Shown piece after piece: positions 13,230 through 32,542 of a DNA stretch of 64,000 nt. Below the pieces are notes generated by a model. The model was not told the DNA's origin and ran no database searches. It saw nothing but the letters and a program-made list of their open reading frames with translations. The stretch is from Spirochaetota bacterium. GTDB lineage: Bacteria; Spirochaetota; UBA4802; UB4802. Numbering within the stretch: the first letter of the stretch is position 1; each line of letters starts with the position of its first letter. The position numbers and the translations under genes were made by a program. Where the stretch lies: the NCBI GenBank assembly GCA_026414805.1, contig JAOAIH010000001.1:51335-115334 (forward strand), read 5' to 3'.

Positions 13230-14574
13230 TTAACTTCGCAATTCGGAGATTAGTTCATCTATGACTTCTTTAAAATCCATATCTTCTTCTATGGATTTTT
13301 CTATGTTATTAATAGCATTGAGTACAGTTGAGTGATCTCTGTCACCAAACTCTTTTCCTATCTCGATTGTTGTTAGTTCTGTTAATCTACGAGAAAGATA
13401 CATTGCAATAAAACGTGGCTGCACTACTTTACTTTGTCTGTTTTTTGAAATGATATCTTCAACAGTAACTCCAAATTTAGAAGCCACTTTTACCATAATA
13501 TCGTGTACGGTAATCTTTTTGTTACTGTCAACATCAAATAGATCTTTGCAATGATCTTTTGCTAATTGAACAGTTATAGGCTGATTATATATACTTGACA
13601 CCATGCTAAGCCTGACCAATGCAGCTTCAAGCGCACGTATACTTGATTTTATCCTACGAGCTATATAGTTGCATACTTCATCGGAGAGCTCAATGTTTAT
13701 TTTCTCTGCTTTATTTCGCAGAATTGCCTCTCGGGTTTCTAAGTTTGGAAGCTGGATATCAACAATCATTCCCCACTCAAATCGGGTTCTAAGCCTCTCT
13801 TCAAGTGTTGAAAGCTCTTTTGGAGGCCTATCACTGGAAATTACAATTTGTTTTTTATTATTATGTAGTGTATTAAAAGTATGGAAAAACTCTTCTTGAG
13901 TTTGCTCTTTCTTTTCAATAAACTGAATATCATCTATCAACAGGATATCCACATTCCTGTATTTAATCTTAAAGCTTGATAAGGTATTAGCTCTTATTGC
14001 CTGTATAAATTCGTTAATGAATTGCTCGCAAGGAACATACAATACGTTAAGGTATGGCCGTTCTTGAATAATCCTATGACCTATGGCCTGCATAAGGTGA
14101 GTTTTACCTAGTCCAGTGCCCCCATAAATAAACAAAGGATTATATTGTGTTGCAGGAGCTTTTGAAACAGATATTGCAGCTGCATGTGCCAACTGGTTGT
14201 TAGGACCAATGACAAAATTTTCAAAAGTATAGTTTGGATTTAATATAGTAGGAAATTGTAATGTCTCTTTTTGATCTTCATTTGGAACTAGTATAGGAGA
14301 ATTTTTTGGCTGTTCCTTAAAGCCATTACCAGTAACAAACTCACACATTATTTCTTTGCCTGTTTGTTCCTTAATGATGGAGTGAATTAGTGAGGCATAA
14401 TGGTCAGAAATATGCCGTTTTGCTACATCATCTGGAACTTTAACAACTAGGATATTTTCATTATATGCCACTGGTTCCGTATTTTTGAACCACATATTGA
14501 AAGATTGTTTATTAATATATGTTTCAACCGAATTTAATACCTTATTCCAGATAGTTACTGTTTGATCTGTCATA
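13230..14574 (-). CDS. dnaA: chromosomal replication initiator DnaA
   Basis: AAA+ Walker A GGTGLGKTHLMQAIGH and a C-terminal DnaA-box-binding HTH (HSTVLNAI). The listed ORF extends to a TTG at 14600; ATG 14574 (MTDQTVTIWNKVL...) is the more likely start. Confidence 0.93.
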
Positions 14575-14900
14575 TTAATAACCCACCTAGTTATCAACAA
14601 TTGTTAATAACTTTGTTGATATCGTAATATACGTTTAGCATGTAATGAAAAGGTTAGTAGCTCAAATCTTTTGGTGTTGATAGTATGTTGAATTGGCTCT
14701 AATAAAGCATGATTACTTTTTTTTGCAACCAATTAATACATAAAAATTATCGGGACAATAAAAAATTTTTTAATTATGGATAATATGAGTATAAATGATT
14801 AAAATCTGTGAATATTATGTGGATAAATAGAAATATATAGTTGAAAAATATGATTTTATGTGTATTATTTGTTAATAATCTATACTAAAAGGTGTAAGCC
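14575..14900. promoter_or_regulatory. candidate oriC / dnaA promoter region with DnaA boxes and an AT-rich unwinding element
   Basis: Perfect DnaA box TGTGGATAA at 14818-14826. Near-perfect boxes TATGGATAA at 14775-14783 and TTATCAACA at 14591-14599. Long A/T runs at 14750-14775. Confidence 0.5.
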
Positions 14901-15158
14901 ATGGGTGTAATAATTAAAGACATAAAGAAAAATAATAATGAAATTATAAGGGTTGAAATTTCTGAATTCCAGGGAAAAGAACTAATTAATTTAAGAATAT
15001 GGTATCAGACAATCGATGGTGGAGAAGTTGTGTATAAGCCAACACAAAAAGGTGTTGCACTTTCGGTTGAAAAATTTGATGAATTACAGGAAGCGGTCAC
15101 AAAAATAGCTGAGTATTTACATGATAAAAAACATGGAACTACTCCACATGATGTATAG
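14901..15158 (+). CDS. PC4/YdbC-like putative ssDNA-binding small protein
   Basis: 85 aa. The pattern LRIWYQT...KPTQKGVALSVEKFDEL resembles the bacterial PC4 (YdbC) family consensus (IRxW...KGIxLSxEEF). It lies directly beside the origin. Confidence 0.4.
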   Translation: MGVIIKDIKKNNNEIIRVEISEFQGKELINLRIWYQTIDGGEVVYKPTQKGVALSVEKFDELQEAVTKIAEYLHDKKHGTTPHDV

Positions 15159-16599
15159 TTTCGTGATAATACAACTTAATAATTGATTGTATTAGTAAGT
15201 ATTGTGATTTTTTTATCTGCATCTCATCATGTAGTAAATTGGGGTTTAGTACACCATTAATCATATCCATAATGCAATATTGTGCTCCTATGGGTAGCTT
15301 CTGAGTACAATTGTGAACAAGCTTTTTTGGTAGTTGTTTAAATGCTGTTGCAAGGGTAAACCATCCAAGTTCAAATAGTAAATAATATATACTATCAGAA
15401 TTAATGTATTTAGGATATAATTTGTGAAATGGCATAGAATATAATTTATTTATTTGTGACATGTGTGAAAGATAAAGTTGTATTAGAGAATATTGTGCTT
15501 CCATTGTGTCCATATAATTAAATTTATTTTTAAAATATGAATGTATACTTTGTAATCTTCTTGAAGAGATGTACAGCGATAGTTTTTGTAATAGGAATGT
15601 GTGGTTGGAAAAAGCTGAAGCGATAGTACTATCAGTACAATGTGATAATATAGTGTACAACAATCCTGAATTTTCTATTTCATTAAACCAGGTTTCAAAA
15701 TTTTTTTTCTGAAATGTGGACAGTATTGTTATAAAGTGCAGAATCTTATTAATTTTGTCTATAAAATTGCCATACTTAAAGTATTGTTTACTTCTCAGTT
15801 TTAAATAGAGAATCTCTTCAAAAGCATATATCCCTTCAATCAAATCCCGGGTCTTGATATTTTTAACTACTTGTCCAACATGCATTATATCTGATATAAG
15901 ATTGCTGGAAATGTTATATTTGATTTTTAATGCATGTTGAGGAAAAGCACGTGTTAATAGATACAGATGATAAGGAGTGAGTACATTTTCGTTCAATAAG
16001 AAATAAATTAGTTTTTGTAACTCATTGTCTTCCATTCTTTCAAGAATAATTTCAAGAGAAGGGAAAAGGTTATAGGGATCTCTAAAAAACTGCAAAAATT
16101 GTAATTCAATATCATTGATCAAACCTTGCTTTGTTAAGTCATTAGCTTTTATTCTAAAAAGCTTAAAAAATTCTAAAGGGACATAGATTGTGAAAGAATG
16201 TACATCATTATTTGTAGGATCATCATGAAAAGAAGCGGTAATGGAAACATGTGGAATTTTCAAAGATGCGTTTTCAGATGGTACTTCATCAGAAAAAGTT
16301 ACTTTTAATATTTTTTTTGTAACCATGCTTACTCGTAATGCTATGCTAAAGGTGTTGTTATGAATATATTCCTTTATTGCTAGGAAAATATTGTTATTAT
16401 CAGTGGTGATAGTTATTGGATAATGTTTTGAAGACACTTTATGAAATGAAATACTGATATTATATTTTTGTAATTGTATGTATTCTTCCTGCCATGGGGT
16501 TAAAGCAAATATATTACAGTTGCATACCCTTGCTATTGAAACATCGATATCCTGAAACAGAATCAAGAAAAGTAGATGCGAAGCTGTGTTATAAAACAT
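15139..16599 (-). CDS. hypothetical protein (486 aa) at the end of the REC-GGDEF / REC-PP2C operon
   Basis: Long ORF with typical coding composition; no motif recognised. A 25-nt gap separates it from the upstream REC-PP2C gene. Confidence 0.5.
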   Translation of the reverse strand: MFYNTASHLLFLILFQDIDVSIARVCNCNIFALTPWQEEYIQLQKYNISISFHKVSSKHYPITITTDNNNIFLAIKEYIHNNTFSIALRVSMVTKKILKVTFSDEVPSENASLKIPHVSITASFHDDPTNNDVHSFTIYVPLEFFKLFRIKANDLTKQGLINDIELQFLQFFRDPYNLFPSLEIILERMEDNELQKLIYFLLNENVLTPYHLYLLTRAFPQHALKIKYNISSNLISDIMHVGQVVKNIKTRDLIEGIYAFEEILYLKLRSKQYFKYGNFIDKINKILHFITILSTFQKKNFETWFNEIENSGLLYTILSHCTDSTIASAFSNHTFLLQKLSLYISSRRLQSIHSYFKNKFNYMDTMEAQYSLIQLYLSHMSQINKLYSMPFHKLYPKYINSDSIYYLLFELGWFTLATAFKQLPKKLVHNCTQKLPIGAQYCIMDMINGVLNPNLLHDEMQIKKSQYLLIQSIIKLYYHETIHHVE

Positions 16600-16624
16600 T
16601 TCGTGTTTTAGCTTATTGTAAAAT

Positions 16625-17842
16625 TTATGAAAAATCTATATACACAAAAGCGATATCATCATTCCTCTCCTCCAGTGGGGAGAAGTTTTCAAGAGTTTGT
16701 AAAAGATGTTCACAAAATTCTTCCGGGTTTTCATTGTGTTGTTTTAAGAATTTTGCTAATCTATTTTCTCCAAATTCTTCTTTATTGGCATTTTTAATTT
16801 CAGTTATGCCATCTGTATAAAGTATGCACCTGTCACCCTGTTCAAAGTGGATGGTCTTTTGCTCATAGAGTGAATCATCCTGAATACCTAAAAATAACCC
16901 GTTTGTGTCAAGGGCAATAACTTTGTCTGAATTTTTTCTATAGTACAATGGTCGTGTATGTCCAGCATTTGTGAAAGAAATGGTTTTTTTATCAACATCA
17001 ATAAGCATGTAAAATGCAGTAATATATTGCATATCTAACAATAATCCACGCATTTCTTCATTGATTTTTGCCATTAGTTGCTGAGTGTTTGTTATCTCAT
17101 ACGCATAGATATTGAATGTCATCTTTGCCATACTCATGACAAGAGCTGCAGGGATCCCGTGTCCAGTAACATCGGCAATGAGAATACCAACTTTTGAATC
17201 AGAGATTTTATAGCAATCAAAAAGATCTCCACCAATATCAGCAATAGGGAGGTATCGTCCGCTGATAGATGGATATGATATGAATGAAAAATCTTTAGGA
17301 ATGATGAATTGTTGGAGTCGTTTTGCATATTCAAGTTCTTTTTGAATTAATTGATTCTTTTCATAGAGTTCATCATGAGCATTTTTTAATCTCAGTAAAG
17401 ACTGTACCCGTGCTATCAATTCTTTTGGGTTAAGTGGTTTTAACAAAAAATCATCAGCGCCAATCGTTAATCCTTTAATCTTTGAATTAAGATCATCAAG
17501 GCCCGTCATAAGAATGACAGGAATAAATTCGTTCCCTATATATTTTTTGAATTGTTCAAGAAAACCAAAACCATCTAAATTTGGCATCACAATATCAACC
17601 AGTATTAAATCAAAGTGTCTCAATTTTAAGGCATTAAGACCTTCTATGCCATCTGATGCTTCAAAAACATTAATGTTGTAGGTTGATAAAGTATTTTTTA
17701 CAATTGCCCTGTTTAATTTACTATCATCAATAACCAATATATTTTTTGGTGTTTCTGATGAATGAAATGATTGTAATATCATAATCATTAATCCTTCATA
17801 CTGTTTTTGATGCCGCAGAGAAAAGTGAAAATTGTTGTTCAA
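16625..17842 (-). CDS. response regulator with C-terminal PP2C/SpoIIE (RsbU-like) phosphatase domain
   Basis: REC: ILVIDDSKLNRAIV...DLILVDIVMPNLDGF. PP2C-like C-terminus: ADVTGHGIPAAL, LYTDGITE and ERNDDIAFVYIDFS. Confidence 0.75.
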   Translation of the reverse strand: MNNNFHFSLRHQKQYEGLMIMILQSFHSSETPKNILVIDDSKLNRAIVKNTLSTYNINVFEASDGIEGLNALKLRHFDLILVDIVMPNLDGFGFLEQFKKYIGNEFIPVILMTGLDDLNSKIKGLTIGADDFLLKPLNPKELIARVQSLLRLKNAHDELYEKNQLIQKELEYAKRLQQFIIPKDFSFISYPSISGRYLPIADIGGDLFDCYKISDSKVGILIADVTGHGIPAALVMSMAKMTFNIYAYEITNTQQLMAKINEEMRGLLLDMQYITAFYMLIDVDKKTISFTNAGHTRPLYYRKNSDKVIALDTNGLFLGIQDDSLYEQKTIHFEQGDRCILYTDGITEIKNANKEEFGENRLAKFLKQHNENPEEFCEHLLQTLENFSPLEERNDDIAFVYIDFS

Positions 17843-19976
17843 TATATGGACCAGAGGAATACGCTATATAAATATCTTTGATTATGCGATATTCTTCATC
17901 CTTTAGAATATTTGGAGCATATAACGGAAGATTAATTTGATCACAGAATAATCGCAACCCGTTTATAATTTTTATTCTATCTTTAAAATAATGGATGTTT
18001 CGGATCATATGTTCGGAAAGTATCACCATAGAGAATTCAATTGTAGAAAGGTATTGCAACAAGTTGCTTCCAATATAGCAATTTGAAACTGCAAATTCAA
18101 TACATGAATTGTTTTTTAAAGATAATCTCTCAAATTGGGTACTAAATGAATTCAAGTCTATTTCATCAATAGCTAAGATAACTTTTTTGAGTGAAAGTTT
18201 GGTGCAAATAGTATGCAGTGTTTCAATTTGTAATGATAGATCAATTGCAGAAATCCAGTTAATAATGACAGGTAATTGTATATGATGTGCTATCATAATT
18301 TCAGACAATGACGAAATAAATTGCATATAATGGTTAGCGGCTGTTATCGCATTTTTTGTCATAATATCAAAAAAGTTTTTTGCTGAAACAAGTTGCTTGC
18401 TTAATACATGATACATCGTTTTTTTAAAGCTTGTTGTATACACCGGCATAAAAAAGAGATAATCGCTGATTTCTTTTTTGGAATGAATTGCGTGTAAAAA
18501 TGAAGTCACTATGTTTGCTTCATTTGGAAGTGATAATAGTGGGGCAAAATATGATTTAATTGACTTAATTTCTTGTAGTATTTTTCTGGCACGGTTTTTG
18601 TGAAATGGGACAACTCCATGAGCATAGTGAATATCAATATGATGATGTATGGATTGCAATGAAATATCCAGAACAATTTCTTTACATAATTTATTAAATT
18701 CAGAAATGTTGGTTTTTAATGTTGAAGGAAATGGAAAAAGAATTGCTATTTCATAATCATAAAGATCCGCAACGGTTACATATCGTTCATAGGGAAAATG
18801 TATTTCACAAATCTTAGGGATCAGTAGAGCAATATTCTCTATATCGTATTCAAAATTTTTGTATCCCCTGTATTGGTAAAAATCAATAAGTGGCATAATT
18901 TTTATAATTAACACGCCAATCGCGTCTATTGATGTTTCAAAAGATAGCAGATTTTCAAGGACAACTGGAAGATAATGGTAGCCTGTCACAGGTTCATGAA
19001 GGAATGGGTCAATGAATATATTTTTAATTGCTTTATTTGTTTTAATGTATTCCCAGAATTTATCATTTCTGGACATGATAGGGCTGAAAGTGTATACACG
19101 ATTCCTTCCATCAGTTTTTGCTGAATATAAAGCTTGGTCAGCACGTGATAGCAATTCTGACAGATTGGTACCCATAGAGGGATACTCTGAAATGCCTGCA
19201 GAAAAGCTTACTGAAAATGTTTTATCGGGAGTGTTGGTTTTGAAGCTGATACTTGAAAATTGAAGCCTGATGCGGTCTATAATTTTTTTTGCTTCATTTG
19301 ACTGAAGCCCTGGGAATATGACTACAAATTCTTCACCGCCAAAGCGGGCAGGAGTAAAGTTATTTGATTGCAGTGATTTTAGCATATTAGCTAACTGAAT
19401 CAGCACAATATCTCCAATTGGATGACCATAAGTATCGTTGATATTTTTAAAATGGTCAATATCAATAATAGCTATACAGACACAGCTATGGATGTGACTT
19501 TCAATCTCAAATGAAAAGCGACGAAAAAATTCTTTTCTAGTAAAAAGGCCAGTGAGGTCATCAGTGACTGACAGCAGATAAAGCTCATCATGCTGTACTA
19601 ATTTTGCATGGACTAAAGAGTGTAACTCTTCATTTTTAAAGGGTACAGCTAGATACCCATCTGCTCCTGCATCAATTGCTGAGATTCTGTCATGTATCTC
19701 GTTATTTTGGCCAAAGACAATACAGGGAACATAACGGGTTATTGAATTTTTCTTAATTAGGCTCACAAGTTCAAATGCATTAATGTCGGCAATGTCAGTA
19801 CCAATTAATATGATATGGGGCAATTTATATGATATAAGGCTCAGTACTTCCATGCCGCTTTTTGTAATTGTTATCGTATATAGCGAATCTGAAAAAACCC
19901 TTGTGATGGTGCTAATAGAATCTTCATCTTTAGATACGATAAAAATCTGATAATTTTTTTCAATGCCCGGTGTCAT
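17796..19976 (-). CDS. response regulator-diguanylate cyclase (REC-GGDEF) with ~420-aa C-terminal extension (possibly degenerate GGDEF/EAL)
   Basis: REC domain at the N-terminus. GGDEF domain with LTGLFTRKEF, IDIDHFKNINDTYGH and the GGEEF active-site motif (RFGGEEFVVIF). The C-terminal part carries weak GGDEF-like and EAL-like remnants. Confidence 0.8.
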   Translation of the reverse strand: MTPGIEKNYQIFIVSKDEDSISTITRVFSDSLYTITITKSGMEVLSLISYKLPHIILIGTDIADINAFELVSLIKKNSITRYVPCIVFGQNNEIHDRISAIDAGADGYLAVPFKNEELHSLVHAKLVQHDELYLLSVTDDLTGLFTRKEFFRRFSFEIESHIHSCVCIAIIDIDHFKNINDTYGHPIGDIVLIQLANMLKSLQSNNFTPARFGGEEFVVIFPGLQSNEAKKIIDRIRLQFSSISFKTNTPDKTFSVSFSAGISEYPSMGTNLSELLSRADQALYSAKTDGRNRVYTFSPIMSRNDKFWEYIKTNKAIKNIFIDPFLHEPVTGYHYLPVVLENLLSFETSIDAIGVLIIKIMPLIDFYQYRGYKNFEYDIENIALLIPKICEIHFPYERYVTVADLYDYEIAILFPFPSTLKTNISEFNKLCKEIVLDISLQSIHHHIDIHYAHGVVPFHKNRARKILQEIKSIKSYFAPLLSLPNEANIVTSFLHAIHSKKEISDYLFFMPVYTTSFKKTMYHVLSKQLVSAKNFFDIMTKNAITAANHYMQFISSLSEIMIAHHIQLPVIINWISAIDLSLQIETLHTICTKLSLKKVILAIDEIDLNSFSTQFERLSLKNNSCIEFAVSNCYIGSNLLQYLSTIEFSMVILSEHMIRNIHYFKDRIKIINGLRLFCDQINLPLYAPNILKDEEYRIIKDIYIAYSSGPYIEQQFSLFSAASKTV

Positions 19977-19982
19977 TATTCG

Positions 19983-20825
19983 TTAATATCCCAACGTTTC
20001 ATTTAATATTTTTAAAGACTCTACTGCTGCACTGGCATAATCCAGCAAGCTATACTGCGGCTCCTTATATGCATAATTTATACTGCTAGAAGCATTTACA
20101 CGATGAAGGCTTTTAGTACGGGTATTATTTAATAATGCACTAACTGCTTCAATATCTCCTCCCTGTGTACCAATACCGGGTATGAGCAATGGGATGTCTT
20201 TCCCTGATTCATCAAACAATTGTATAATGTCGTTGAGTTGTCGTGGGAATGTTGCGCCAACAACAGCTCCAATACCGGGAGAATGCCACTCAATAATTTT
20301 TTTTGCAATTATAAAATATAATGGTGTATCATTAACAGTAATATCCTGTATTTCTACCGAACTTTTGTTGGATGTTTTAACAAGAACATAACAACCCTTA
20401 TCCGGGTAAGTGCTTGTAAATGGTTGAATTGCGTCATATCCAAGGTAGGGCGAAAGTGTGACAGCGTCAGCATCAAAGAATTCAAATGCTTCTTTTGCAT
20501 ACGCTGTTGCGGTTTTGCCAATGTCTCCTCGTTTTACATCCAGTATAACAGGAATCCCTTCATTTTTAAAAAGCTTTATGACATCACATAATGCAAAAAT
20601 TCCTTCAATGCCATACTGTGCATAAAAAGCATAATTTGGTTTTACACAGGCAGGGAAAACCCCAAGCTGCAAACATTTGTTAAGTATTCCTTCATAAAAT
20701 GCAACTATCGTTGTACGTGGAGATTCTTTTTTAAAAGGTATATCTTCAATAACAGGGTCAAGGCCCATACATACAATGCTTTTAAATTTGTTGGAAAAAA
20801 ATTGTAACGATTCGCAATAGTTCAT
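19983..20825 (-). CDS. pyrF: orotidine 5'-phosphate decarboxylase (long, type 2 form)
   Basis: 280 aa. Contains VCMGLDP, VKPNYAFY and ILDVKRGDIGKTATAYA motifs. Confidence 0.8.
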   Translation of the reverse strand: MNYCESLQFFSNKFKSIVCMGLDPVIEDIPFKKESPRTTIVAFYEGILNKCLQLGVFPACVKPNYAFYAQYGIEGIFALCDVIKLFKNEGIPVILDVKRGDIGKTATAYAKEAFEFFDADAVTLSPYLGYDAIQPFTSTYPDKGCYVLVKTSNKSSVEIQDITVNDTPLYFIIAKKIIEWHSPGIGAVVGATFPRQLNDIIQLFDESGKDIPLLIPGIGTQGGDIEAVSALLNNTRTKSLHRVNASSSINYAYKEPQYSLLDYASAAVESLKILNETLGY

Positions 20826-21362
20826 TTAAGAGAGCTCCTGTAAATATTTTTGGTATAATCCATAGTTCTCATCATCAAAAAGGACAAAGTACACATCTAT
20901 AAGAAAATTTTCTTTTTCCATGAATTCAATCACTGTTGAAAGAGCTATCCTGCATGCTTCATCTTTTGGATAGCCATATACACCTGTAGAAATAGCTGGA
21001 AATGCAATTGATTTGCATTCTTTTTCTTTTGCTAATTTCATACTGTTATAATAGGAATTCTTTAATATACTAGACTCATTGTGCTTTCCTCCTCTGTATA
21101 CTGGGCCAGGCGTATGGATCACATATTTTGCCGGGAGTCTGTAGCCTTTAGTGATCTTGGCTTCGCCAGGCTGTGCGCCACCTAAAGCCCTGCATTCCTC
21201 CAAAAGCTGTGGACCTGCGGCACGGTGTATTGCACCATCAACACCCCCGCCGCCAAGCAAAGAGGGGTTTGCCGCATTGACTATCGCATCAACCTCTATT
21301 TTAGTTATATCCCCTTTCTGTATGTGTATGTGTTTCACAATAGCGCTTCTGTCTATTGCCAT
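20826..21362 (-). CDS. macro-domain protein (O-acetyl-ADP-ribose deacetylase, YmdB-like)
   Basis: DITKIEVDAIVNAANPSLLGGGGVDGAIHRAAG and GYPKDEA motifs; 178 aa. Confidence 0.85.
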   Translation of the reverse strand: MAIDRSAIVKHIHIQKGDITKIEVDAIVNAANPSLLGGGGVDGAIHRAAGPQLLEECRALGGAQPGEAKITKGYRLPAKYVIHTPGPVYRGGKHNESSILKNSYYNSMKLAKEKECKSIAFPAISTGVYGYPKDEACRIALSTVIEFMEKENFLIDVYFVLFDDENYGLYQKYLQELS

Positions 21363-21501
21363 AGGTGCCTCCCGACTATGCTATAGAGTAAAAAATTTTT
21401 TTTCACAGAAAAAAAGGTATTATTAATTGATAATAGTATGCACACTATGTGTTTAATTCAAGCATAATTAAAGAAAATGTTGTAAGAGATAGTTAAATAC
21501 T

Positions 21502-23388
21502 ATGATACGATATTTTGACATTATAGTCATAGGTGCAGGACATGCTGGGGCCGAAGCAGCACTGGCATCTGCACGGCGGGGTTTTGCAACACTACTTTTG
21601 ACTGGCAATCTTGATACTATATGCCAGATGAGTTGTAATCCTGCTATAGGTGGGTTGGCAAAAGGGCATCTAGTGAAAGAGATTGATGCATTAGGTGGAC
21701 AAATGGGATTGACAATAGATGAAACGGGTATTCACTATAAGATGCTCAACAAAAGTAAAGGGCCAGCAGTGTGGGCACCACGTGCACAAGCCGATAAAAA
21801 GCAATATCAACTCAGGATGAAGGAAGTTATTGAAAAACAGAAGAATTTAACATTGATACAGGATATTGTGGACGAAATTATTGTTGAAGGTGATACGGTA
21901 AAAGGAGTTCAAACCATACGAGGACAGCAACATGTCGCACAAGCAGTTATAGTGTGTACAGGAACATTTTTAAAGGGACTTATCCATATTGGCAATTATA
22001 ATGAGAGAGCAGGGAGACTGGGTGATTTTTCATCTGAGAAGCTTTCGGATTCATTGCGCGCATTGGGCTTTCCAGTAAGACGGTTAAAAACAGGGACCCC
22101 TCCACGGGTTAATGGTAATTCAATAGATTTTAGTAAATGTGAAGTGCAACATCCTGACCCTGTTCCCACACCATTTTCGTACAGGACACAATCCATTAAT
22201 AGACCACAGGTGCCCTGTTATATTACCTATACAACTGACAAGACTCATACAATTATAATGAATAACCTGCATCTATCCCCATTGTATTCAGGCAAGATTA
22301 AAGGTATAGGGCCACGATATTGTCCATCAATTGAGGATAAGGTTGTCCGTTTTTCTTCACGAAATCGCCACCAACTGTTCCTAGAACCAGAGGGATTACA
22401 CACAAATGAATACTACATAAATGGATTTTCTAGCTCATTACCTGAGGATGTACAATTAGAAATGATTAAAACTATCCCTGGCTTAGAGGAAGTGCAAGTA
22501 ATGCGTCCTGCGTATGCTGTGGAATATGACTATGTGCCACCGGTAGAGTTATATCATACATTGGAAACCAAAAGGGTCAAAGGATTATATCATGCAGGGC
22601 AAATTAATGGGACATCAGGGTATGAGGAAGCAGCTGCACAGGGAATTATTGCTGCAATAAATGCAGGTAATAAGCTATTGGGATTGCCACCTCTGGTGCT
22701 TAAACGTTCTGAAGCATATATCGGAGTGCTCATTGATGATCTGGTTACCAAAGGTGCTGATGAACCTTACAGGATGTTCACATCCCGGGCCGAGTACAGG
22801 CTGTTACTAAGGCAGGATAACGCTGATGAACGGTTAATGAAGTATGGTTATCAGATAGGCCTAATTGATAAGGAACTATATGAAAGAACCGTTGAAAAGT
22901 ATAAAAGAATACAGGAACTTACCGCTAAAATAAATAGCATGACCATTGTAATTAATGAAAAAATGAAGGATATTCTCAGAGATAAGAATATAGAGATAGA
23001 AGAACAACACCAGATCCTAGCAGGAAAACTGTTAAAGCGCCCTGAAATAACCATGCATGATGTCATGTCTTTTATTGTTGAAAGCGATAGTACCCTTATA
23101 ATGAATGAGCAGGAAGCTAAGATTGTTGAGATGAATATCAAGTATGAAGGATATATCAGGAAAGATATGGAACGAGTAAAAAAGTTGGAGCAGATGGAAA
23201 ACAAAAAGATTCCAGAAACTATTGATTACGATAGTATCATTGGGCTTAAAAATGAAGCACGCGAAAAACTGAAAAAAATAAAGCCTCAAACAATAGGGCA
23301 AGCGTTGCGCATTTCAGGAGTTGATCCTTCAGATATATCGATAGTCTTAGTACATATAGAATCGTTAAGCAGAAAAAAAAGTAATTAA
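21502..23388 (+). CDS. mnmG: tRNA uridine-5-carboxymethylaminomethyl modification enzyme MnmG (GidA)
   Basis: 628 aa. FAD-binding [15 protein letters not shown] at the N-terminus, GidA-like throughout. Confidence 0.95.
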
Positions 23389-25214: not shown

Positions 25215-26987
25215 TTATGCAATTGAATTGAAATGTTCCATTGTATCGTTAATATGATGAGCAACAATATCACTGATATGGTATTCATGATAAATAATAT
25301 CATCAATTGAGTCCATTAATAGTTTCCTTTTATGCTCATTTGTTTCTTCCCTTAGTGTTAGGGATAAATTTTTTAACATGTTTTTATTAGATGAATTAAT
25401 TATTTTTATAGGTAATTTTTCAAGATTCCCGCGTAACACTTTTACAGTAAAAAATTGAGTATCATAGATATATTGAAGAAGGCGTGAGTTTAAGATTGCA
25501 GTAAGAATATCCGGATCCAAATCTGGGCTAAGAGGGATAAATCCATTAACATTATTCAAAGTATAAAATCCATGAGGGTCTACAGCAAACGTAAGATGCT
25601 TGCCAATAAATTTGTATACTATTTTATTGGGAGTTAGGTAACAACTCTTTTCGGCAACCTGTTGTAATGTAGCCACATTGTACTTGAAATAATGACCACT
25701 AAAAGTAATTCGAAATTTTTCGACATCTTTGCCTACAATTATTGGGTCTGGATGCAAACTATCTCTGGTATTGCTTATGTGGTGTTCATTGTTTCCAGTA
25801 ACAATTCCAAGAAAAAATTTTACTCTGTCTTTTAGTGTAATGTATGAAAGGGACTGAATATGTTCTAATAAGGCAACAGCTTTTCGTGAATAATTAATTG
25901 AAAATATATTTTGATATGATTCACTATACATATGTTGTGGTATTAGGTGAGCGGTATTTTTAGCAAGATTTATTAAAGATTTCCCGTGTTTTATATGTAC
26001 AATATTTTTCTTACGAACATCTTTGCACGGCTCTTTTTGAATTGTTAATGATATCGCCGGTGCATATACTCCTTTAAAACAATCTCCCCATTGTACTATT
26101 TCCTTAATCACCGAAAGCGATAGTACTAGTTCTCTTGATTTCTGATGCGCTTTGATATTGAGATATGCTTCTGGAATAAGAAATGATAATATCCCATGAT
26201 TTCGTAATAAAGACAATGACTTTTCAATAAATAGTGTAAAACTGTTAATACCACTTAAAGCTGAAATATAATGCTGTTTGAAATATTGTTTTTGCTCTTT
26301 AGTAAAATATGCACCCCATGGTGGATTACCAATAATAACATCAAATAGCATAGAATTGTATTGTCTATTAAAAAGATCGCCGGATGTAAGGGTGTCTTTA
26401 TGAAATATGTTAGTTTTTCTTCCTGATATCTTTTGTATATTCCACTGAGCAATCATACAGGCTATAGGGTCTATATCATAACCATACAGATTGGTATGAC
26501 AAATAATATTGGTAGATTCATTTTCAGGTATGCCAAGGTGTTTGTATAATGTTAATAAATATTGAAAGATATATATTAAAAACTGGCCTGAACCACATGC
26601 AGGATCTAAAATCCTCATAGTATATGGATTATCATAGTGCTGAAGTGCATTGTGTACCATATACTGAACAATTGCAGGTGGTGTAAAATACTGTCCTCTC
26701 TTTTTTTTGTCATCTGTATCTTTTAGCTGTTGATAAATATAGCCAGCAATATCGCCATATTGTATTATGTCCCATTTTTGGATTACCTTTAAAAGATCAT
26801 TGCATGCTAATTTTCCTTGTTCAGATAATGGTAATGGAATTTCTCTATTAAAAAGTAAATATTCAAGTATTGTTTGAATGAAATTGGATGACTCTTGGTT
26901 TGCAATAATATCTTTTTTTAGTTGCCCTATGCAGTAATCGATATAATGAATGTTATGAGTAATATAAGAATCAAATTTGTTTTTCAT
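25215..26987 (-). CDS. N6-adenine DNA methyltransferase (gamma-class, Eco57I/TaqI-like) with C-terminal target-recognition region; no adjacent restriction endonuclease
   Basis: Motif I LDPACGSGQFLI, motif IV NPPW (IIGNPPWGAYF), preceded by QYFTPPAIV. 590 aa. Confidence 0.75.
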   Translation of the reverse strand: MKNKFDSYITHNIHYIDYCIGQLKKDIIANQESSNFIQTILEYLLFNREIPLPLSEQGKLACNDLLKVIQKWDIIQYGDIAGYIYQQLKDTDDKKKRGQYFTPPAIVQYMVHNALQHYDNPYTMRILDPACGSGQFLIYIFQYLLTLYKHLGIPENESTNIICHTNLYGYDIDPIACMIAQWNIQKISGRKTNIFHKDTLTSGDLFNRQYNSMLFDVIIGNPPWGAYFTKEQKQYFKQHYISALSGINSFTLFIEKSLSLLRNHGILSFLIPEAYLNIKAHQKSRELVLSLSVIKEIVQWGDCFKGVYAPAISLTIQKEPCKDVRKKNIVHIKHGKSLINLAKNTAHLIPQHMYSESYQNIFSINYSRKAVALLEHIQSLSYITLKDRVKFFLGIVTGNNEHHISNTRDSLHPDPIIVGKDVEKFRITFSGHYFKYNVATLQQVAEKSCYLTPNKIVYKFIGKHLTFAVDPHGFYTLNNVNGFIPLSPDLDPDILTAILNSRLLQYIYDTQFFTVKVLRGNLEKLPIKIINSSNKNMLKNLSLTLREETNEHKRKLLMDSIDDIIYHEYHISDIVAHHINDTMEHFNSIA

Positions 26988-28090: not shown

Positions 28091-29536
28091 ATGAATACAA
28101 AACAAAAGGATATTTTAGCTATTTTTTGTTTGTTTTTAATTTTGCCTGTTATTGTGACTGCAAAGCCAATTATTACGATTGATAGCATCGATGTAACTTC
28201 ATTTCCAGCGATTAATATAAAAGGTATTATCAACAAACCAGAAAGCACTGATATTGGTGCAGTAACAAAAGAACATTTTACAGTTCTAGAGGATGGCACA
28301 AAAGTTAAGAATTTTGAATTAAAAACTTCTATAGCAGATAGTTATATTGCTGTTTGTGTAGATTCAAGTAAAAGTATATCCAAGAAAAATTTTTTAAAAC
28401 TTAAAAAAATAGCATTGAACGTAATCAGTAAAAGCCCTGAACACTATAAGTTTATTCTGTATAAATTTAATGATGAGGTTGTAAAATTAGGTTCTTTTTT
28501 AGAAAATAGATACTATTATCATGAAACTATTGAAACAATACAGCAGCATGGTAAGCGCACAAAATTGTTCAACTGCTTGTTTACAGCTACAGAGGAACTA
28601 GCGCGTTATGAGGGGAAAAGATCCATTATACTGCTGACCGATGGGAGGGATGAAGGCAGTTTTATGTTACCAGATGACATTATCAGCAATGCCCGTGAAC
28701 ATTCTATCCCTATATATACAATTGTACCAGAGCGCTGTTCAAAGGCTGCGGTTGTTAGCCGGTTAAGCAAAATTACAAAAGGGAAGCTTCTTGTTGCTGA
28801 TGCAGGGATAGAACATACTGTACTTAATTTGCTTCAGGGAGGAAAGTCATCCGTTATCCCATTTGAGATTATTTTCACATCCAAAAAACATGATAGTGCA
28901 ATACATTCCATTGAAGTACAATTCAAATATAAAACTATTCAGGATAATGATACTGTACACGTAAAGTACGCAATAGCACGTAATACCTATTCACTTACTG
29001 ATGAGCTTCCCTTTGTGGTACTTGCTGGGATTGTAGTGCTATTGATCATGGCGCTTGTTATAGTTATATTGATATTTATAAATAAATGGAGAGAGATAGT
29101 TGAGCTCATCACCATGCATAGGATACCAAAACCAATTCAGCGTTATTATTCCGTACTGTATGAAAAAGATGAAATGACAAAAAAAGAAGCAGATACATTA
29201 CTTTTGGCAACATCTCCTGAATACAGTTATACAAATGCTTGGCTTGTTGAAAAAAGTGGCCCTGAAACAGGGAAAAAATTTCCTCTAATATGGGATGAAG
29301 TAACAATTGGGCGCGATAAGGAGAATACTATAGTAATTAATGATGATGCAGTATCCCTGAAACATGCAAAAATAAAAAAAATTGGAAATACATATTATCT
29401 TTTTGACTGTGCAAGCGATAATGGTACCTTTTTGAATAACAAGAAGTTATTGCGTCCCAAACCTCTCTCAGACTGGGATGAAATACAGATAGGAAGAACA
29501 ACGATATTGTTCCGTGGAACAAAGATAAAACATTAA
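28091..29536 (+). CDS. signal-peptide vWA domain - transmembrane helix - cytoplasmic FHA domain protein
   Basis: vWA-like region (VCVDSSKSIS, ILLTDGRDEGS). A single TM (LPFVVLAGIVVLLIMALVIVILIF). C-terminal FHA-like region (VTIGRDKENTIVINDDAVSLKHAKI...YYLFDCASDNGTFLNNKKL). Confidence 0.7.
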   Translation: MNTKQKDILAIFCLFLILPVIVTAKPIITIDSIDVTSFPAINIKGIINKPESTDIGAVTKEHFTVLEDGTKVKNFELKTSIADSYIAVCVDSSKSISKKNFLKLKKIALNVISKSPEHYKFILYKFNDEVVKLGSFLENRYYYHETIETIQQHGKRTKLFNCLFTATEELARYEGKRSIILLTDGRDEGSFMLPDDIISNAREHSIPIYTIVPERCSKAAVVSRLSKITKGKLLVADAGIEHTVLNLLQGGKSSVIPFEIIFTSKKHDSAIHSIEVQFKYKTIQDNDTVHVKYAIARNTYSLTDELPFVVLAGIVVLLIMALVIVILIFINKWREIVELITMHRIPKPIQRYYSVLYEKDEMTKKEADTLLLATSPEYSYTNAWLVEKSGPETGKKFPLIWDEVTIGRDKENTIVINDDAVSLKHAKIKKIGNTYYLFDCASDNGTFLNNKKLLRPKPLSDWDEIQIGRTTILFRGTKIKH

Positions 29537-29540
29537 GTAT

Positions 29541-31046
29541 ATGTCCCTAAAAGTACTTCTGGTATCACCTCCGGTATTTGATTTTTATTATAGCTTTCAC
29601 CGTTCTGAACCCCTTGGGCTTTTGTATATTAGGGAAGCTTTGTTGAGGTATGATTGGCTTACGGTAGATATGTTTGATGCACGGTGTAACAGCACCACAA
29701 AAATGATACCTACCCCACACATATTTGATTATCTGAAACATATCTATGTTAAGGATACTTCATGGTTTAGTCTTCTTTATGGCTTTAAACGATATGGTTA
29801 TTCATTTGAAACAATATCAAAATTTGTTAAGGAACATGCGTATGATGTAGTATGCATTTCTTCTCTTTTCTCGGCATATCACCATGATGTTGAGTTACTG
29901 GTTAAAAAAATTAAAGAAGAAACCGGGGCGATAGTTATTGTGGGAGGATGGGCTGTATGGGCAGAAAAAACGGTAATTGAAAATGGCAGTGCTGATTTTT
30001 ATATAAGTGGAGATGGAGATGTGATACTGCCTGAGATACTGCGTGAGATAGATAGCAATAATACATCTAGGTTGCCTAAACTGATTACTACTAAGAATTC
30101 AGAATATAACGAATTCTTTGTAAATAGCTTCCCCTCTCGTAGGCACTGGTATACCTACTATGGTGCACGAATAGCAAATATCATCTGTAGCAAAGGGTGT
30201 GTGTATCGTTGTGATTTTTGTTCAATACATTGTCGGTATCGTTACTATCAGCGGAATTTTGAATCAATAGAAAAAGAATTAGAATATCTGTATGCACACG
30301 GAGTGAAAATAGTCAATTTTGAGGATGACAATTTTTTATTCCACAAAGGATTTGCATTACAGTTGCTATCGCTTTTGAAATATTACCATAAAAAAGGAAT
30401 GCATTTTTTATGTATGAATGGCGTAACCGCTTTCAATCTTCATTCAGTTTTGGATGATGCTCTTAATGCTGGATTTTTAGAATTTAACCTTTCCCTGGTT
30501 TCTTCGCAAAATACAGTAGTTGCTCAACATCACAGGCCTGATGTAAAAGAAATAATCAAAACTATTGCAAAACATTCTGCGGGGAAAGTAAAAGTGGTTG
30601 TGTATCTCATAGCGGGGCTACCGGGTTCTACTGTTGAAACCTGTGTTGAGGATATCCTTTTTTTAGCAAAGCTACCTGTTTTAATAGGATTTTCGCCTTT
30701 ATATATGCTTCCCGGGCTTGAATTATTTGATGCTATTGGTTTACCCAAAGACCGAAGATTATGCAGAGGCAGTGCCCTGTATTATTTTGGAGATAATTTT
30801 AGTCGTGAGGATATTGCGGCATTGTGGAAACTATGCCGTTTTATAAATAGGGTGAAGAATCCAGCAACAATTGATGCAGGTGAGATGAAAGAGCATAGTG
30901 ATTTTTATAAAAAATCCTGTAGAGAAAAGGTATGGTATTTTCGAGATAGCCAAGGTATGTGGCATGAAGGCTTTCAATTTAATGTAACCTTACCCCAAAG
31001 TTTTAAGGTATATGATATACAGGGTAATGAAATGCTTATTTTATAA
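29541..31046 (+). CDS. B12-binding-domain radical SAM protein
   Basis: N-terminal B12-binding-like fold (VLLVSPPV...PLGLLYIREAL). Radical SAM cluster motif CVYRCDFC (CxxxCxxC). Its start is 4 nt after the vWA-FHA stop. Confidence 0.75.
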   Translation: MSLKVLLVSPPVFDFYYSFHRSEPLGLLYIREALLRYDWLTVDMFDARCNSTTKMIPTPHIFDYLKHIYVKDTSWFSLLYGFKRYGYSFETISKFVKEHAYDVVCISSLFSAYHHDVELLVKKIKEETGAIVIVGGWAVWAEKTVIENGSADFYISGDGDVILPEILREIDSNNTSRLPKLITTKNSEYNEFFVNSFPSRRHWYTYYGARIANIICSKGCVYRCDFCSIHCRYRYYQRNFESIEKELEYLYAHGVKIVNFEDDNFLFHKGFALQLLSLLKYYHKKGMHFLCMNGVTAFNLHSVLDDALNAGFLEFNLSLVSSQNTVVAQHHRPDVKEIIKTIAKHSAGKVKVVVYLIAGLPGSTVETCVEDILFLAKLPVLIGFSPLYMLPGLELFDAIGLPKDRRLCRGSALYYFGDNFSREDIAALWKLCRFINRVKNPATIDAGEMKEHSDFYKKSCREKVWYFRDSQGMWHEGFQFNVTLPQSFKVYDIQGNEMLIL

Positions 31047-31864: not shown

Positions 31865-32428
31865 ATGGAATACTTTGGAGGAGATATGGGTAACAGAAGT
31901 TCAGATTGTATTGCACAATGTTATGTTCTATACGGAAGTTATGTTCGAAGTATCATTAAAAGGTTTTACACAGATAAAGACGATATTGAGGATATTTTTC
32001 ATGATGTTTTTCTTAAATTGCTTAACGTTGGGTTTTCCGCAGATCCACATTCATATAAAACCAAAAACTATATTGGGAAGGCAACACGACATTGTTGCAT
32101 TTCACATATGCGTAAAAAGATTGCACGCCAAAAGAATTGCAAAGAAGTCTATACAAGTACTCTATGTGATAGTGATATAGTTGTTGATATATGCAACAAA
32201 AATATTGAAGACACAATAATTGAGGGGATGGTTGTCAGTACTCTTTACGATGTTATACATGAGCTTGAATATCATGAGCAAAATCTGGTGTTTGACAAAT
32301 ATTTTCACAATAAAAAATATGTACAGCTTGCTGCAGAGCAGGGAGTTCCATATTATAGCGTTAAAAGGAAGATTAAAGAAATTAATATTAAAATAAAACA
32401 AAAGTTAATGAATAAAGGTATTGTATAA
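31865..32428 (+). CDS. sigma-70 family (ECF-like) RNA polymerase sigma factor
   Basis: Region-2-like EDIFHDVFLKLL, and a region-4 HTH-like KKYVQLAAEQGVPYYSVKRKIKEI. 187 aa. Confidence 0.5.
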   Translation: MEYFGGDMGNRSSDCIAQCYVLYGSYVRSIIKRFYTDKDDIEDIFHDVFLKLLNVGFSADPHSYKTKNYIGKATRHCCISHMRKKIARQKNCKEVYTSTLCDSDIVVDICNKNIEDTIIEGMVVSTLYDVIHELEYHEQNLVFDKYFHNKKYVQLAAEQGVPYYSVKRKIKEINIKIKQKLMNKGIV

Positions 32429-32471
32429 TAATAAAGGCGATAGCTATTGTAGTATTTAGCTTGAAATTTAT

Positions 32472-32530
32472 CGATATCTATTGTACAAGTAGCTTGTTTT
32501 TACTAGCAAACAATACAACAATAGATATCG
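32472..32530 (+). promoter_or_regulatory. 13-bp perfect inverted repeat (CGATATCTATTGT / ACAATAGATATCG) with nested TTGTTT/AAACAA stem, abutting the ribosome-binding site of the downstream 7TM-PP2C gene
   Basis: Arms at 32472-32484 and 32518-32530. The right arm ends at the G of GGAAGG (the ribosome-binding site), 8 nt before the TTG start at 32543. No U-run follows. Confidence 0.35.
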
Positions 32531-32542
32531 GAAGGTTTAACT

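What the first reader, a model, noticed from the sequence alone, without database searches (positions are those of the whole stretch)
15139..21362. Operon macro-pyrF-(REC-GGDEF-degenerate GGDEF/EAL)-(REC-RsbU-type PP2C)-486-aa unknown next to the origin
Five tightly packed genes form one unit. Two of the gene junctions overlap (pyrF start/GGDEF-gene stop, 17796-17842); the others have gaps of 0-25 nt. A c-di-GMP synthase and a response-regulator phosphatase are coupled to a large protein with no recognisable domain. Fusing a housekeeping pyrF and a macro-domain deacetylase into a signalling operon is unusual, and the 486-aa protein is the obvious uncharacterised output or partner.
Basis: partly seen in the sequence, partly recalled or inferred. 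Interest (0 to 1): 0.5.

Follow-up and report, generated by a model that had tools for sequence, protein, structure and literature searches.

The report
Hidden flagellar-switch-like protein near origin
The five tightly packed genes are real, but relatives show they are a loose, lineage-specific string rather than a fixed signalling operon, and the supposedly domainless 486-aa protein is an unannotated, spirochaete-only relative of the flagellar rotor proteins FliM and FliG joined in one chain.

Summary
All five ORFs exist at the stated coordinates on the minus strand, next to dnaA and oriC. Their domain calls hold: macro, pyrF, REC-GGDEF with a degenerate C-terminal half, and REC-SpoIIE/PP2C. 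Gaps are 0, 6, 7-13 and 25 nt. The reported overlap is mislabelled and comes from taking the longest ORF.

Across 40 species-level loci the cluster is modular. Macro-pyrF is one stable pair. REC-PP2C precedes the 486-aa gene in 22 of 31 origin-type loci. The GGDEF gene is present in 15. An opposite-strand radical-SAM gene often splits the string. Four of four sampled REC-PP2C orthologues lack the 486-aa gene.

Verdict: an ordinary gene string containing a new, accessory FliM/FliG-like fusion family. Its function is inferred, not shown.

The parts
20826..21362 (-). Macro-domain protein (O-acetyl-ADP-ribose deacetylase type), 178 aa
   Evidence: Pfam Macro E 4e-47. NCBIfam NF001664 scores 226.9 bits against a cut-off of 200. 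Its stop codon abuts the pyrF ATG. The macro-pyrF pair is kept in nearly all origin-type loci.
19983..20825 (-). pyrF, orotidine-5'-phosphate decarboxylase (type 2), 280 aa
   Evidence: TIGR02127 scores 202.7 bits against a cut-off of 110.6. The gap to the next gene is 6 nt.
17796..19976 (-). 726-aa diguanylate cyclase: pseudo-receiver (aa 11-122), GGDEF with intact GGEEF and no RxxD I-site (aa 137-293), undetected region (aa ~300-580, possibly a degenerate GGDEF), degenerate partial EAL (aa 583-714)
   Evidence: Pfam results are. In the REC domain the CheY D57, T87 and K109 equivalents are G, G and V. PARFGGEEF is invariant in 16 orthologues, and the REC phospho-site varies between lineages. 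hhalign of aa 300-475 against the GGDEF domain is weak (probability 27%). The absence of an I-site was judged by eye.
16625..17782 (-). REC-SpoIIE/PP2C response-regulator phosphatase, 385 aa (start ATG 17782 or 17788; the TTG at 17842 is a longest-ORF artefact)
   Evidence: Pfam Response_reg E 8e-26 and SpoIIE E 1.7e-48, the latter over the full model length. The receiver has canonical DD, D, T and K residues. Orthologues are 382-385 aa.
16132..16599 (-). 486-aa protein, aa 1-156: alpha/beta domain with the CheC/CheX/FliM-middle fold
15706..16131 (-). 486-aa protein, aa 157-298: first helical domain (FliG_N-like by position). It carries the family motifs FFxNPxxLFP, LLTxYQ, AFP(E/Q)HS, LSxN, RD and GIYSxEE.
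15415..15705 (-). 486-aa protein, aa 299-395: second helical domain, FliG_M/FliG_C-like
15142..15414 (-). 486-aa protein, aa 396-486: FliG_C-like domain (GW...LSTALK...LIEDVLxGxVNPNILHDE...)
14901..15158 (+). PC4-like (ssDNA-binding fold) 85-aa gene, convergent with the 486-aa gene and overlapping its 3' end by 20 nt
   Evidence: Pfam PC4 E 4.7e-14, 52 bits against a cut-off of 25. It is present downstream in 31 of 40 loci, 19 of them with the same 20-nt overlap.
14574..14900 (.). dnaA-upstream intergenic region, the probable oriC
   Evidence: GC is 24%. The GC-skew sign change occurs here. DnaA-box matches lie at 14591, 14775 and 14818.
21363..21501 (.). 139-nt divergent intergenic region between macro and mnmG, the only non-coding space where a promoter for the string could sit
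   Evidence: Sequence is. The promoter scan is no better than shuffled sequence. This is an inference only.

Best explanation
The region is a lineage-specific, probably co-transcribed string assembled from separable modules. It is not a dedicated five-gene signalling machine. Four modules can be distinguished.
1. Macro-pyrF is a housekeeping pair.
2. The 726-aa protein is a diguanylate cyclase. Its receiver has lost the phospho-acceptor residues in this lineage, and its C-terminal half is a degenerate EAL-like region, possibly preceded by a degenerate GGDEF-like region.
3. The next gene encodes a canonical phospho-accepting REC-PP2C phosphatase.
4. The 486-aa protein belongs to a previously unannotated, Spirochaetota-restricted, fast-evolving accessory family. 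Its N-terminal domain has the CheC/CheX/FliM-middle fold. Its remaining ~330 residues are collinear with full-length FliG and end in a bona fide FliG_C homologue.

Inferred mechanism (not shown). The only known jobs of the CheC fold are binding CheY-type receivers and binding FliG. The known jobs of FliG domains are rotor and stator contacts. I therefore propose that the protein acts as a protein-protein adaptor derived from the flagellar switch. It would dock a REC-domain signalling protein encoded upstream (REC-PP2C, or REC-GGDEF in some genomes). Through its FliG-like half it would then engage or mimic a component of the periplasmic-flagellar motor.

Sub-confidences: domain identity about 0.9; co-transcription of the string in this genome about 0.6; functional link to the upstream REC protein about 0.45; a motor-related target about 0.3.
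For: Identity of the 486-aa protein:
- AF2 model with 53 sequences has pLDDT 88.1 and pTM 0.86.
- Foldseek's best hit is full-length FliG over 330 columns.
- The C-terminal profile hits only FliG in the PDB, E 6.5e-6.
- Pfam FliG_C matches 24 of 53 members, and two members pass the gathering score.
Family: 65 clusters at 50% identity and 40 species-level loci, all Spirochaetota MAGs and all named 'hypothetical'.
Link to REC proteins: REC-PP2C lies immediately upstream in 22 of 31 origin-type loci, with gaps of -4 to +4 nt in 9 of them. 26 of those 31 loci carry REC-PP2C and/or the REC-GGDEF gene upstream.
Modularity.
Active-site and receiver status.
Fast evolution: 58-61% identity against 77-97% for the neighbouring genes.
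Against: - No hallmark motif of the canonical switch survives. EHPQ is found in 0 of 53 members, FliM GGxG in 2 of 53 and the CheC phosphatase motif in 1 of 53. Only 2 of 5 torque-helix charged residues are kept.
- No flagellar gene lies in the window or beside any family member.
- Nine loci place the gene after a fatty-acid-type operon with no signalling gene nearby.
- Four of four sampled REC-PP2C orthologues (62-65% identity) lack the gene. Two of them (L049, L051) sit beside an Hpt gene, and a third (L050) has a STAS gene 3.7 kb downstream. REC-PP2C therefore probably has other partners.
- The N-terminal and first helical domain assignments rest on a predicted structure only.
- No interaction was tested.
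Confidence: 0.4

Rival explanations
1. The five genes form one dedicated signalling operon in which c-di-GMP synthesis, a response-regulator phosphatase, pyrF and a macro-domain enzyme act together on the 486-aa output protein.
For: Gaps are 0-25 nt, with no predicted terminator and a single upstream intergenic region. The same five-gene order occurs in L006-L012, L018 and L019, where dnaA identity falls to 73%.
Against: The whole origin region is syntenic in those genomes, so shared order carries little weight. Elsewhere an opposite-strand radical-SAM gene splits the string. The GGDEF gene is absent in 16 of 31 origin-type loci and REC-PP2C in 9 of 31. Macro-pyrF persists without any signalling gene after it.
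Confidence: 0.15
2. The 486-aa protein is a fold-level descendant of FliG and FliM that now has a non-motility role, as the FliG-like N domain of MgtE does. One possibility is a scaffold, substrate or regulator in a PP2C partner-switching or c-di-GMP pathway. Another is a role tied to the origin region.
For: All canonical interface motifs are lost. No flagellar neighbours are present. MgtE N domains appear among the structural hits. The gene keeps a conserved position beside the PC4-like gene and oriC in 31 of 40 loci. Its distribution is patchy and accessory.
Against: The full FliG-like domain order plus a FliM-like domain is kept in one chain across the family, down to 15-25% identity. That is more than a single reused ARM-like domain. 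All hosts are spirochaetes, which carry periplasmic flagella (general knowledge, not tested here).
Confidence: 0.35
3. The 486-aa protein is a genuine structural C-ring subunit: an alternative FliG isoform, like FliG1 of Borrelia, that assembles into the rotor.
For: The C-terminal domain is homologous to FliG_C, and the helical part is collinear with full-length FliG.
Against: The window protein has no hit to any Pfam FliG model. EHPQ is absent, and the R281, D289 and R297 equivalents are lost. The gene is not in a fliF-fliG context. It is missing from closely related genomes. It evolves much faster than its neighbours.
Confidence: 0.07

Closest known systems
FliG, flagellar rotor/switch protein (Pfam FliG_N, FliG_M, FliG_C)
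   Same: The C-terminal 90 aa are sequence-homologous to FliG_C, and the second helical domain is FliG_C-like in distant members. The ~330-aa helical part aligns along the whole of FliG in Foldseek. The K264 and D288 equivalents are conserved.
   Different: It has an extra N-terminal CheC/FliM-like domain. It lacks the EHPQ(R) motif and keeps only 2 of 5 torque-helix charges. A 6-residue NPNILH insertion occurs in the C-terminal domain. The window protein is below detection for Pfam FliG models. It is not encoded with fliF or other flagellar genes, and it is patchily distributed.
FliM middle domain and the CheC/CheX/FliY family
   Different: There is no detectable sequence similarity. The D/S-x3-E-x2-N-x22-P phosphatase site is absent, as are the FliM GGxG motif, the FliM N-terminal CheY-binding peptide and a FliN-like C-terminal domain.
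FliY (CheC-like domain fused to FliN), and engineered FliG-FliM fusions (the latter recalled from memory)
   Same: These are precedents for a CheC-fold domain joined in one chain to another C-ring component.
   Different: Here the partner is FliG-like rather than FliN-like, the order is CheC-like then FliG-like, and the protein is not encoded among flagellar genes.
REC-PP2C response regulators with a partner gene downstream (Pseudomonas RssB-RssC; the HptB-HsbR-HsbA-HsbD cascade, recalled from memory)
   Same: The domain architecture is REC + SpoIIE/PP2C. NCBIfam RssB_Pseudo aligns full length (E 1e-32) but far below its cut-off. An Hpt gene lies next to orthologues in L049 and L051, and a diguanylate cyclase is nearby.
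   Different: The downstream gene is a FliM/FliG-like protein rather than a STAS antagonist. No kinase domain is present. No STAS or Hpt gene is found in the window.
PleD/DgcR-type REC-GGDEF cyclases and LapD/FimX-type degenerate GGDEF-EAL receptors
   Same: REC-GGDEF with intact GGEEF. NCBIfam PleD scores 181 bits and Leptospira DgcR 159 bits, both below their cut-offs. A degenerate EAL-like tail is present.
   Different: The receiver lacks the Asp, Thr and Lys residues in this lineage. No I-site is present. The 430-aa C-terminal half is too diverged to assign.

Membership tests
FliG (flagellar motor switch protein) | Matches Pfam FliG domain models above the gathering score | tested here: not met
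   The window protein has no FliG hit even at E<=10. Within its family, 24 of 53 members match FliG_C at E<=1, and P0069 and P0076 pass the 23.3-bit cut-off.
FliG (flagellar motor switch protein) | Three helical domains in N-M-C order with the FliG fold | tested here: met
FliG (flagellar motor switch protein) | EHPQ(R) motif of the middle domain (FliM-binding surface) | tested here: not met
   EHPQ is present in 0 of 53 family members.
FliG (flagellar motor switch protein) | Conserved charged residues of the torque helix (E. coli K264, R281, D288, D289, R297) | tested here: not met
   hhalign and HMM alignments map K264 to K421 and D288 to D445, both conserved. R281 maps to G438, D289 to M446 (V in most members), and R297 falls in an NPN insertion.
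FliG (flagellar motor switch protein) | Encoded with fliF and other flagellar genes; binds the FliF C-terminus | tested here: not met
   tblastn with ten E. coli Fli proteins finds nothing in the window. No flagellar gene was seen among the annotated neighbours of the 40 loci. FliF binding is not testable with these tools.
CheC/CheX/FliY CheY-P phosphatases | CheC alpha/beta fold | tested here: met
CheC/CheX/FliY CheY-P phosphatases | Active-site motif D/S-x3-E-x2-N-x22-P | tested here: not met
   The motif is found in 1 of 53 members and not in the window protein. ExxN positions are not aligned between members.
FliM | N-terminal CheY-binding peptide, GGxG motif in the middle domain, FliN-like C-terminal domain | tested here: not met
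   The protein starts directly with the folded domain. GGxG is present in 2 of 53 members. The C-terminal part is FliG-like, not FliN-like. hhalign against E. coli FliM is not significant.
SpoIIE/RsbU-type PP2C response regulator (405/385-aa gene) | Receiver with phospho-acceptor Asp plus a full-length SpoIIE/PP2C domain | tested here: met
   Pfam Response_reg scores 90.8 bits and SpoIIE 165.5 bits over profile positions 2-191 of 192. The CheY D12/D13, D57, T87 and K109 equivalents are present. Metal-binding motifs were judged by eye only.
Diguanylate cyclase (726-aa gene) | GGDEF domain with an intact GG(D/E)EF active site | tested here: met
   Pfam GGDEF scores 141 bits and TIGR00254 138 bits against a cut-off of 37.4. 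PARFGGEEF is invariant in 16 orthologues. Enzyme activity was not tested.
EAL c-di-GMP phosphodiesterase (726-aa gene, C-terminus) | Full EAL domain above the Pfam threshold, including the EAL-motif region | tested here: not met
   The score is 26.5 bits against a cut-off of 31.3, and only profile positions 101-235 are matched. phmmer against the PDB finds no EAL protein. Loss of the catalytic residues was judged by eye.
Conserved operon (five genes as one unit) | Same gene set and order kept in relatives beyond the general synteny of the region | tested here: not met
   Only 11 of 31 origin-type loci have both signalling genes. A radical-SAM gene on the opposite strand splits the string in many loci. 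REC-PP2C orthologues occur without the 486-aa gene.

The most novel reading that the evidence does not exclude
The family is a self-contained 'one-chain switch unit' (FliM-like plus FliG-like) that spirochaetes use as a regulated accessory of the periplasmic-flagellar motor. For example, it could act as a decoy or clutch that a phosphorylated REC-PP2C or REC-GGDEF protein loads onto the rotor or stator. That would give a new route from two-component and c-di-GMP signalling to motor behaviour, possibly including the unexplained asymmetry between the two polar motors.
Probability: 0.12. Interest if true: 0.8.

Novelty: new variant of a known kind. Interest (0 to 1): 0.45.

Why it matters
Divergent paralogues of the flagellar switch proteins are rare, and a natural chain joining a FliM-middle-like domain to a complete FliG-like protein does not appear in the searched literature. 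Every database copy I looked up is labelled 'hypothetical protein'. If the protein touches the motor, it would be a new type of motor regulator in spirochaetes, whose motor control is poorly understood. If it does not, it is a clear example of the whole switch module being recruited for another job. The gene string itself, which was the original finding, is ordinary.

Tried and rejected
- Single-sequence and 12-sequence searches of the 486-aa protein against Pfam, NCBIfam and PDB sequences gave nothing. The first AF2 model, built from 12 close sequences, was poor in the centre (pLDDT 63.6).
- A profile of aa 157-300 against the PDB gave no significant hit.
- hhalign of each domain against single E. 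coli FliG and FliM sequences was informative only for the C-terminal domain.
- Internal-repeat tests between the three helical domains were not significant.
- A defence-system role was checked with PADLOC and gave no hit.
- I tried to obtain genomic context for the most distant subfamily (P0069, P0071, P0073, P0076). The word-indexed search returned only the query, its contig is 3.8 kb long, and a metagenome scan found nothing.
- The AFDB Foldseek library was unavailable.
- The sub-threshold 7TMR-HDED matches in 24 of 53 members are long, gappy alignments. I judge them motif noise rather than homology.
- The promoter scan is no better than shuffled sequence.
- My early by-eye idea that AFPQH corresponds to the FliG EHPQ motif is dropped. 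Domain order places that motif in the FliG_N-like domain.
- An idea that the GGDEF protein keeps a functional receiver wherever REC-PP2C is absent did not hold. L038 has a degenerate receiver and no PP2C.

Full report
OBSERVATION.
The five ORFs are present on the minus strand exactly where stated: 20826-21362 (178 aa), 19983-20825 (280 aa), 17796-19976 (726 aa), 16625-17842 (405 aa as longest ORF) and 15139-16599 (486 aa).
- Macro, passing the O-acetyl-ADP-ribose deacetylase equivalog.
- pyrF type 2.
- Response_reg + GGDEF + a partial, sub-threshold EAL.
- Response_reg + a full-length SpoIIE/PP2C.
- No family at all for the 486-aa ORF.

The flanks are dnaA-dnaN-recF-gyrB-gyrA on one side and mnmG-rsmG on the other. 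The cumulative GC skew reaches its minimum at about 13.8-14.5 kb. The 24%-GC intergenic region upstream of dnaA carries DnaA-box-like sites. 'Next to the origin' is therefore correct.

Reading the junctions directly gives gaps of 0 nt (macro/pyrF), 6 nt (pyrF/GGDEF) and 25 nt (PP2C/486). It lies between the GGDEF-gene stop and a TTG that merely extends the REC-PP2C ORF. Orthologues are 382-385 aa and begin at the ATG at 17782, which leaves a 13-nt gap. No terminator-like site is predicted anywhere in 14500-21600, and promoter-like matches are no more frequent than in shuffled sequence. Co-transcription is plausible but untested.

THE SIGNALLING PROTEINS.
The REC domain of the PP2C protein has every canonical receiver residue. 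The REC domain of the 726-aa protein has G, G and V at the CheY D57, T87 and K109 positions, so it is a pseudo-receiver in this lineage. In more distant orthologues the same position is D or E and the Lys is present. PARFGGEEF is invariant in all 16 orthologues. The cyclase is therefore catalytically competent by motif, while its input domain has drifted. I see no RxxD I-site five residues upstream of GGEEF, but this was judged by eye.

Residues 300-726 give no hit in the PDB. A profile-profile comparison of aa 300-475 with the protein's own GGDEF domain aligns LYDYEIAILFP with FGGEEFVVIFP, but only at 27% probability. A degenerate second GGDEF is possible, not shown. The EAL match is below threshold and lacks the first 100 model positions.

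THE 486-AA PROTEIN.
A word-indexed search found only 12 relatives, all from Spirochaetota MAGs and all 'hypothetical'. A profile of these, run against 1.84 billion cluster representatives, found 65 clusters. 50 of them score E<1e-30, and nearly all are 470-492 aa and align end to end. All named members I looked up are 'hypothetical protein' from Spirochaetota.

The architecture is therefore a CheC/CheX/FliM-middle fold (aa 1-156) followed by three helical domains collinear with FliG N-M-C (aa 157-486).

Sequence evidence supports part of this. A profile of aa 392-486 hits ten PDB sequences, all of them FliG, with a best E of 6.5e-6. Pfam FliG_C matches 24 of 53 family members. In the most distant members the second helical domain passes the FliG_C gathering score. 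The N-terminal domain and the first helical domain have no sequence-level support.

WHAT IT IS NOT.
The hallmark functional motifs are missing:
- EHPQ is present in 0 of 53 members.
- FliM GGxG is present in 2 of 53.
- The CheC/CheX/FliY phosphatase motif is present in 1 of 53.
- Of the five torque-helix charges of E. coli FliG, only the K264 and D288 equivalents (K421, D445) are conserved. R281, D289 and R297 are not.

The family has its own invariant features instead: GW412-413, NPN452-454, HDE457-459, RD251-252 and P180/Y210/P220. There is no flagellar gene in the window or next to any family member examined. The protein evolves much faster than its neighbours, at 58-61% identity against 77-97% in the same genomes. 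The CheC-like domain is its least conserved part. It fails the membership tests for FliG, FliM and CheC, while clearly descending from the same folds.

GENE NEIGHBOURHOOD.
The close relatives (gyrB 96-97% identical) share the entire origin region, so their synteny says little. A scan of one genome per species returned 40 loci, all Spirochaetota or Leptospirales MAGs. Annotating them gave the following:
- 31 loci have the origin-type context, with the convergent PC4-like gene. 19 of these keep the identical 20-nt 3' overlap.
- Of the 31, 22 have REC-PP2C immediately upstream. The gap is -4 to +4 nt in nine of them, which suggests translational coupling.
- 15 of the 31 have the 726-aa cyclase orthologue, and 11 have both genes.
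- In many loci a B12/radical-SAM gene of about 630 aa on the opposite strand sits between macro-pyrF(-GGDEF) and REC-PP2C.
- Macro-pyrF stays adjacent throughout.
- Nine loci place the gene after an acyl-CoA dehydrogenase / TetR / kinase / 3-hydroxyacyl-CoA dehydrogenase / hydrolase / SDR operon, with no signalling gene nearby.

Looking from the other side, the REC-PP2C orthogroup is large: 487 clusters at E<1e-40, all from spirochaete metagenomes. The four long-contig orthologues I sampled (62-65% identical, and sharing the same radical-SAM neighbour) all lack the 486-aa gene. In L050 REC-PP2C is followed directly by the PC4-like gene. In L049 and L051 it sits beside a methyltransferase and an Hpt gene. 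A STAS gene lies 3.7 kb downstream in L050. The window itself has no Hpt or STAS homologue.

The 486-aa gene is thus an accessory, patchily present gene. Its link to REC-PP2C is frequent but facultative.

INTERPRETATION.
Three things are shown:
- The genes and their domains.
- The new family and its FliM-like plus FliG-like architecture (on a confident predicted structure, plus sequence homology for the FliG_C-like parts).
- The modular, non-obligate neighbourhood.

The mechanism is inferred. The CheC fold is known only as a binder of CheY-type receivers and of FliG. FliG domains are known as rotor and stator contact modules. 26 of 31 origin-type loci carry a REC-domain protein upstream. My best mechanistic guess is therefore an adaptor derived from the flagellar switch, which couples a REC-domain signalling protein to a motor component. 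I put about 0.45 on the REC link and about 0.3 on a motor target.

The main rival, at about 0.35, is a switch-derived scaffold that now works outside motility. The loss of every canonical interface motif and the absence of flagellar neighbours both point that way. A true alternative C-ring subunit is unlikely (about 0.07).

NOVELTY AND SCORE.
The gene string is ordinary. The 486-aa family is a new variant of a known kind: an undescribed fusion architecture within the FliG/FliM/CheC superfamily. No paper held two or more of the terms searched. 'FliG-like' occurs in three papers, and the two listed (on FliF/MS-ring modelling and type III secretion structure) do not, by title and abstract, describe such a protein. 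The family is restricted to uncultured spirochaetes. That limits immediate testability, although heterologous assays and complex prediction are feasible. Interest 0.45.

Noticed in passing
window 14901-15158 (+); also L006-L045: An 85-aa PC4-like (ssDNA-binding fold) gene sits between the 486-aa gene and the dnaA upstream region. It is convergent with the 486-aa gene. It occurs in 31 of 40 loci, and 19 of these keep an identical 20-nt 3' overlap. In L050 it directly follows REC-PP2C. A conserved ssDNA-binding-fold gene abutting the probable oriC may be worth study in its own right.
   Followed up: partly
window 14053-14126 (+): A sub-threshold Rfam match to AsdA, the antisense RNA of dnaA mRNA (35.2 bits against a gathering score of 52, E 3e-4), lies antisense to the dnaA coding region. 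It may only reflect conservation of the dnaA coding sequence.
   Followed up: no
family members P0013-P0028 (protein level): 24 of 53 family members give sub-threshold, long and gappy Pfam matches to 7TMR-HDED, the extracellular domain of 7TM-HD receptors (best E 1.7e-5). The matches end near the NPNILHDE motif. This is probably motif noise, but it remains unexplained.
   Followed up: partly
L015 4617-6554, L023 4344-6233, L028 5642-7552, L049-L052: A B12-binding radical-SAM gene of about 630 aa on the opposite strand is a recurrent insertion between pyrF/GGDEF and REC-PP2C in relatives. It is absent from this position in the window. The window has a different 501-aa B12/radical-SAM gene at 29541-31046.
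   Followed up: partly
L049 7198-8386, L051 8106-9300: In genomes that lack the 486-aa gene, the REC-PP2C orthologue is followed by a methyltransferase and an Hpt phosphotransfer gene. This hints that the receiver is fed by a phosphorelay, as in HptB-HsbR. No Hpt or STAS homologue is found in the window.
   Followed up: partly
window 31865-35838 (+): A second signalling string is present. It consists of a sigma-70-region-2 (ECF-like) protein (31865-32428), a 718-aa multi-pass membrane protein with a C-terminal SpoIIE/PP2C domain (32543-34699), and a DHH/DHHA1 phosphoesterase that overlaps the latter by 4 nt (34696-35838).
   Followed up: no
window 25215-26987 (-); L001, L002, L049, L051: A type IIG-like restriction-modification gene (N6_Mtase, Eco57I, MmeI_Mtase and TaqI_C domains) is conserved beside rsmG and a small unknown gene in several relatives. 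This is unusual stability for an R-M gene near the origin.
   Followed up: no
window 15139-21362 versus the GC skew: The whole string is transcribed towards oriC, on the lagging strand and head-on with replication. The same orientation relative to dnaA is kept in all origin-type loci.
   Followed up: no
window 28091-29536 (+): A 481-aa protein combines a VWA domain, a membrane segment (judged by eye) and a C-terminal FHA domain. It lies directly upstream of the radical-SAM gene.
   Followed up: no
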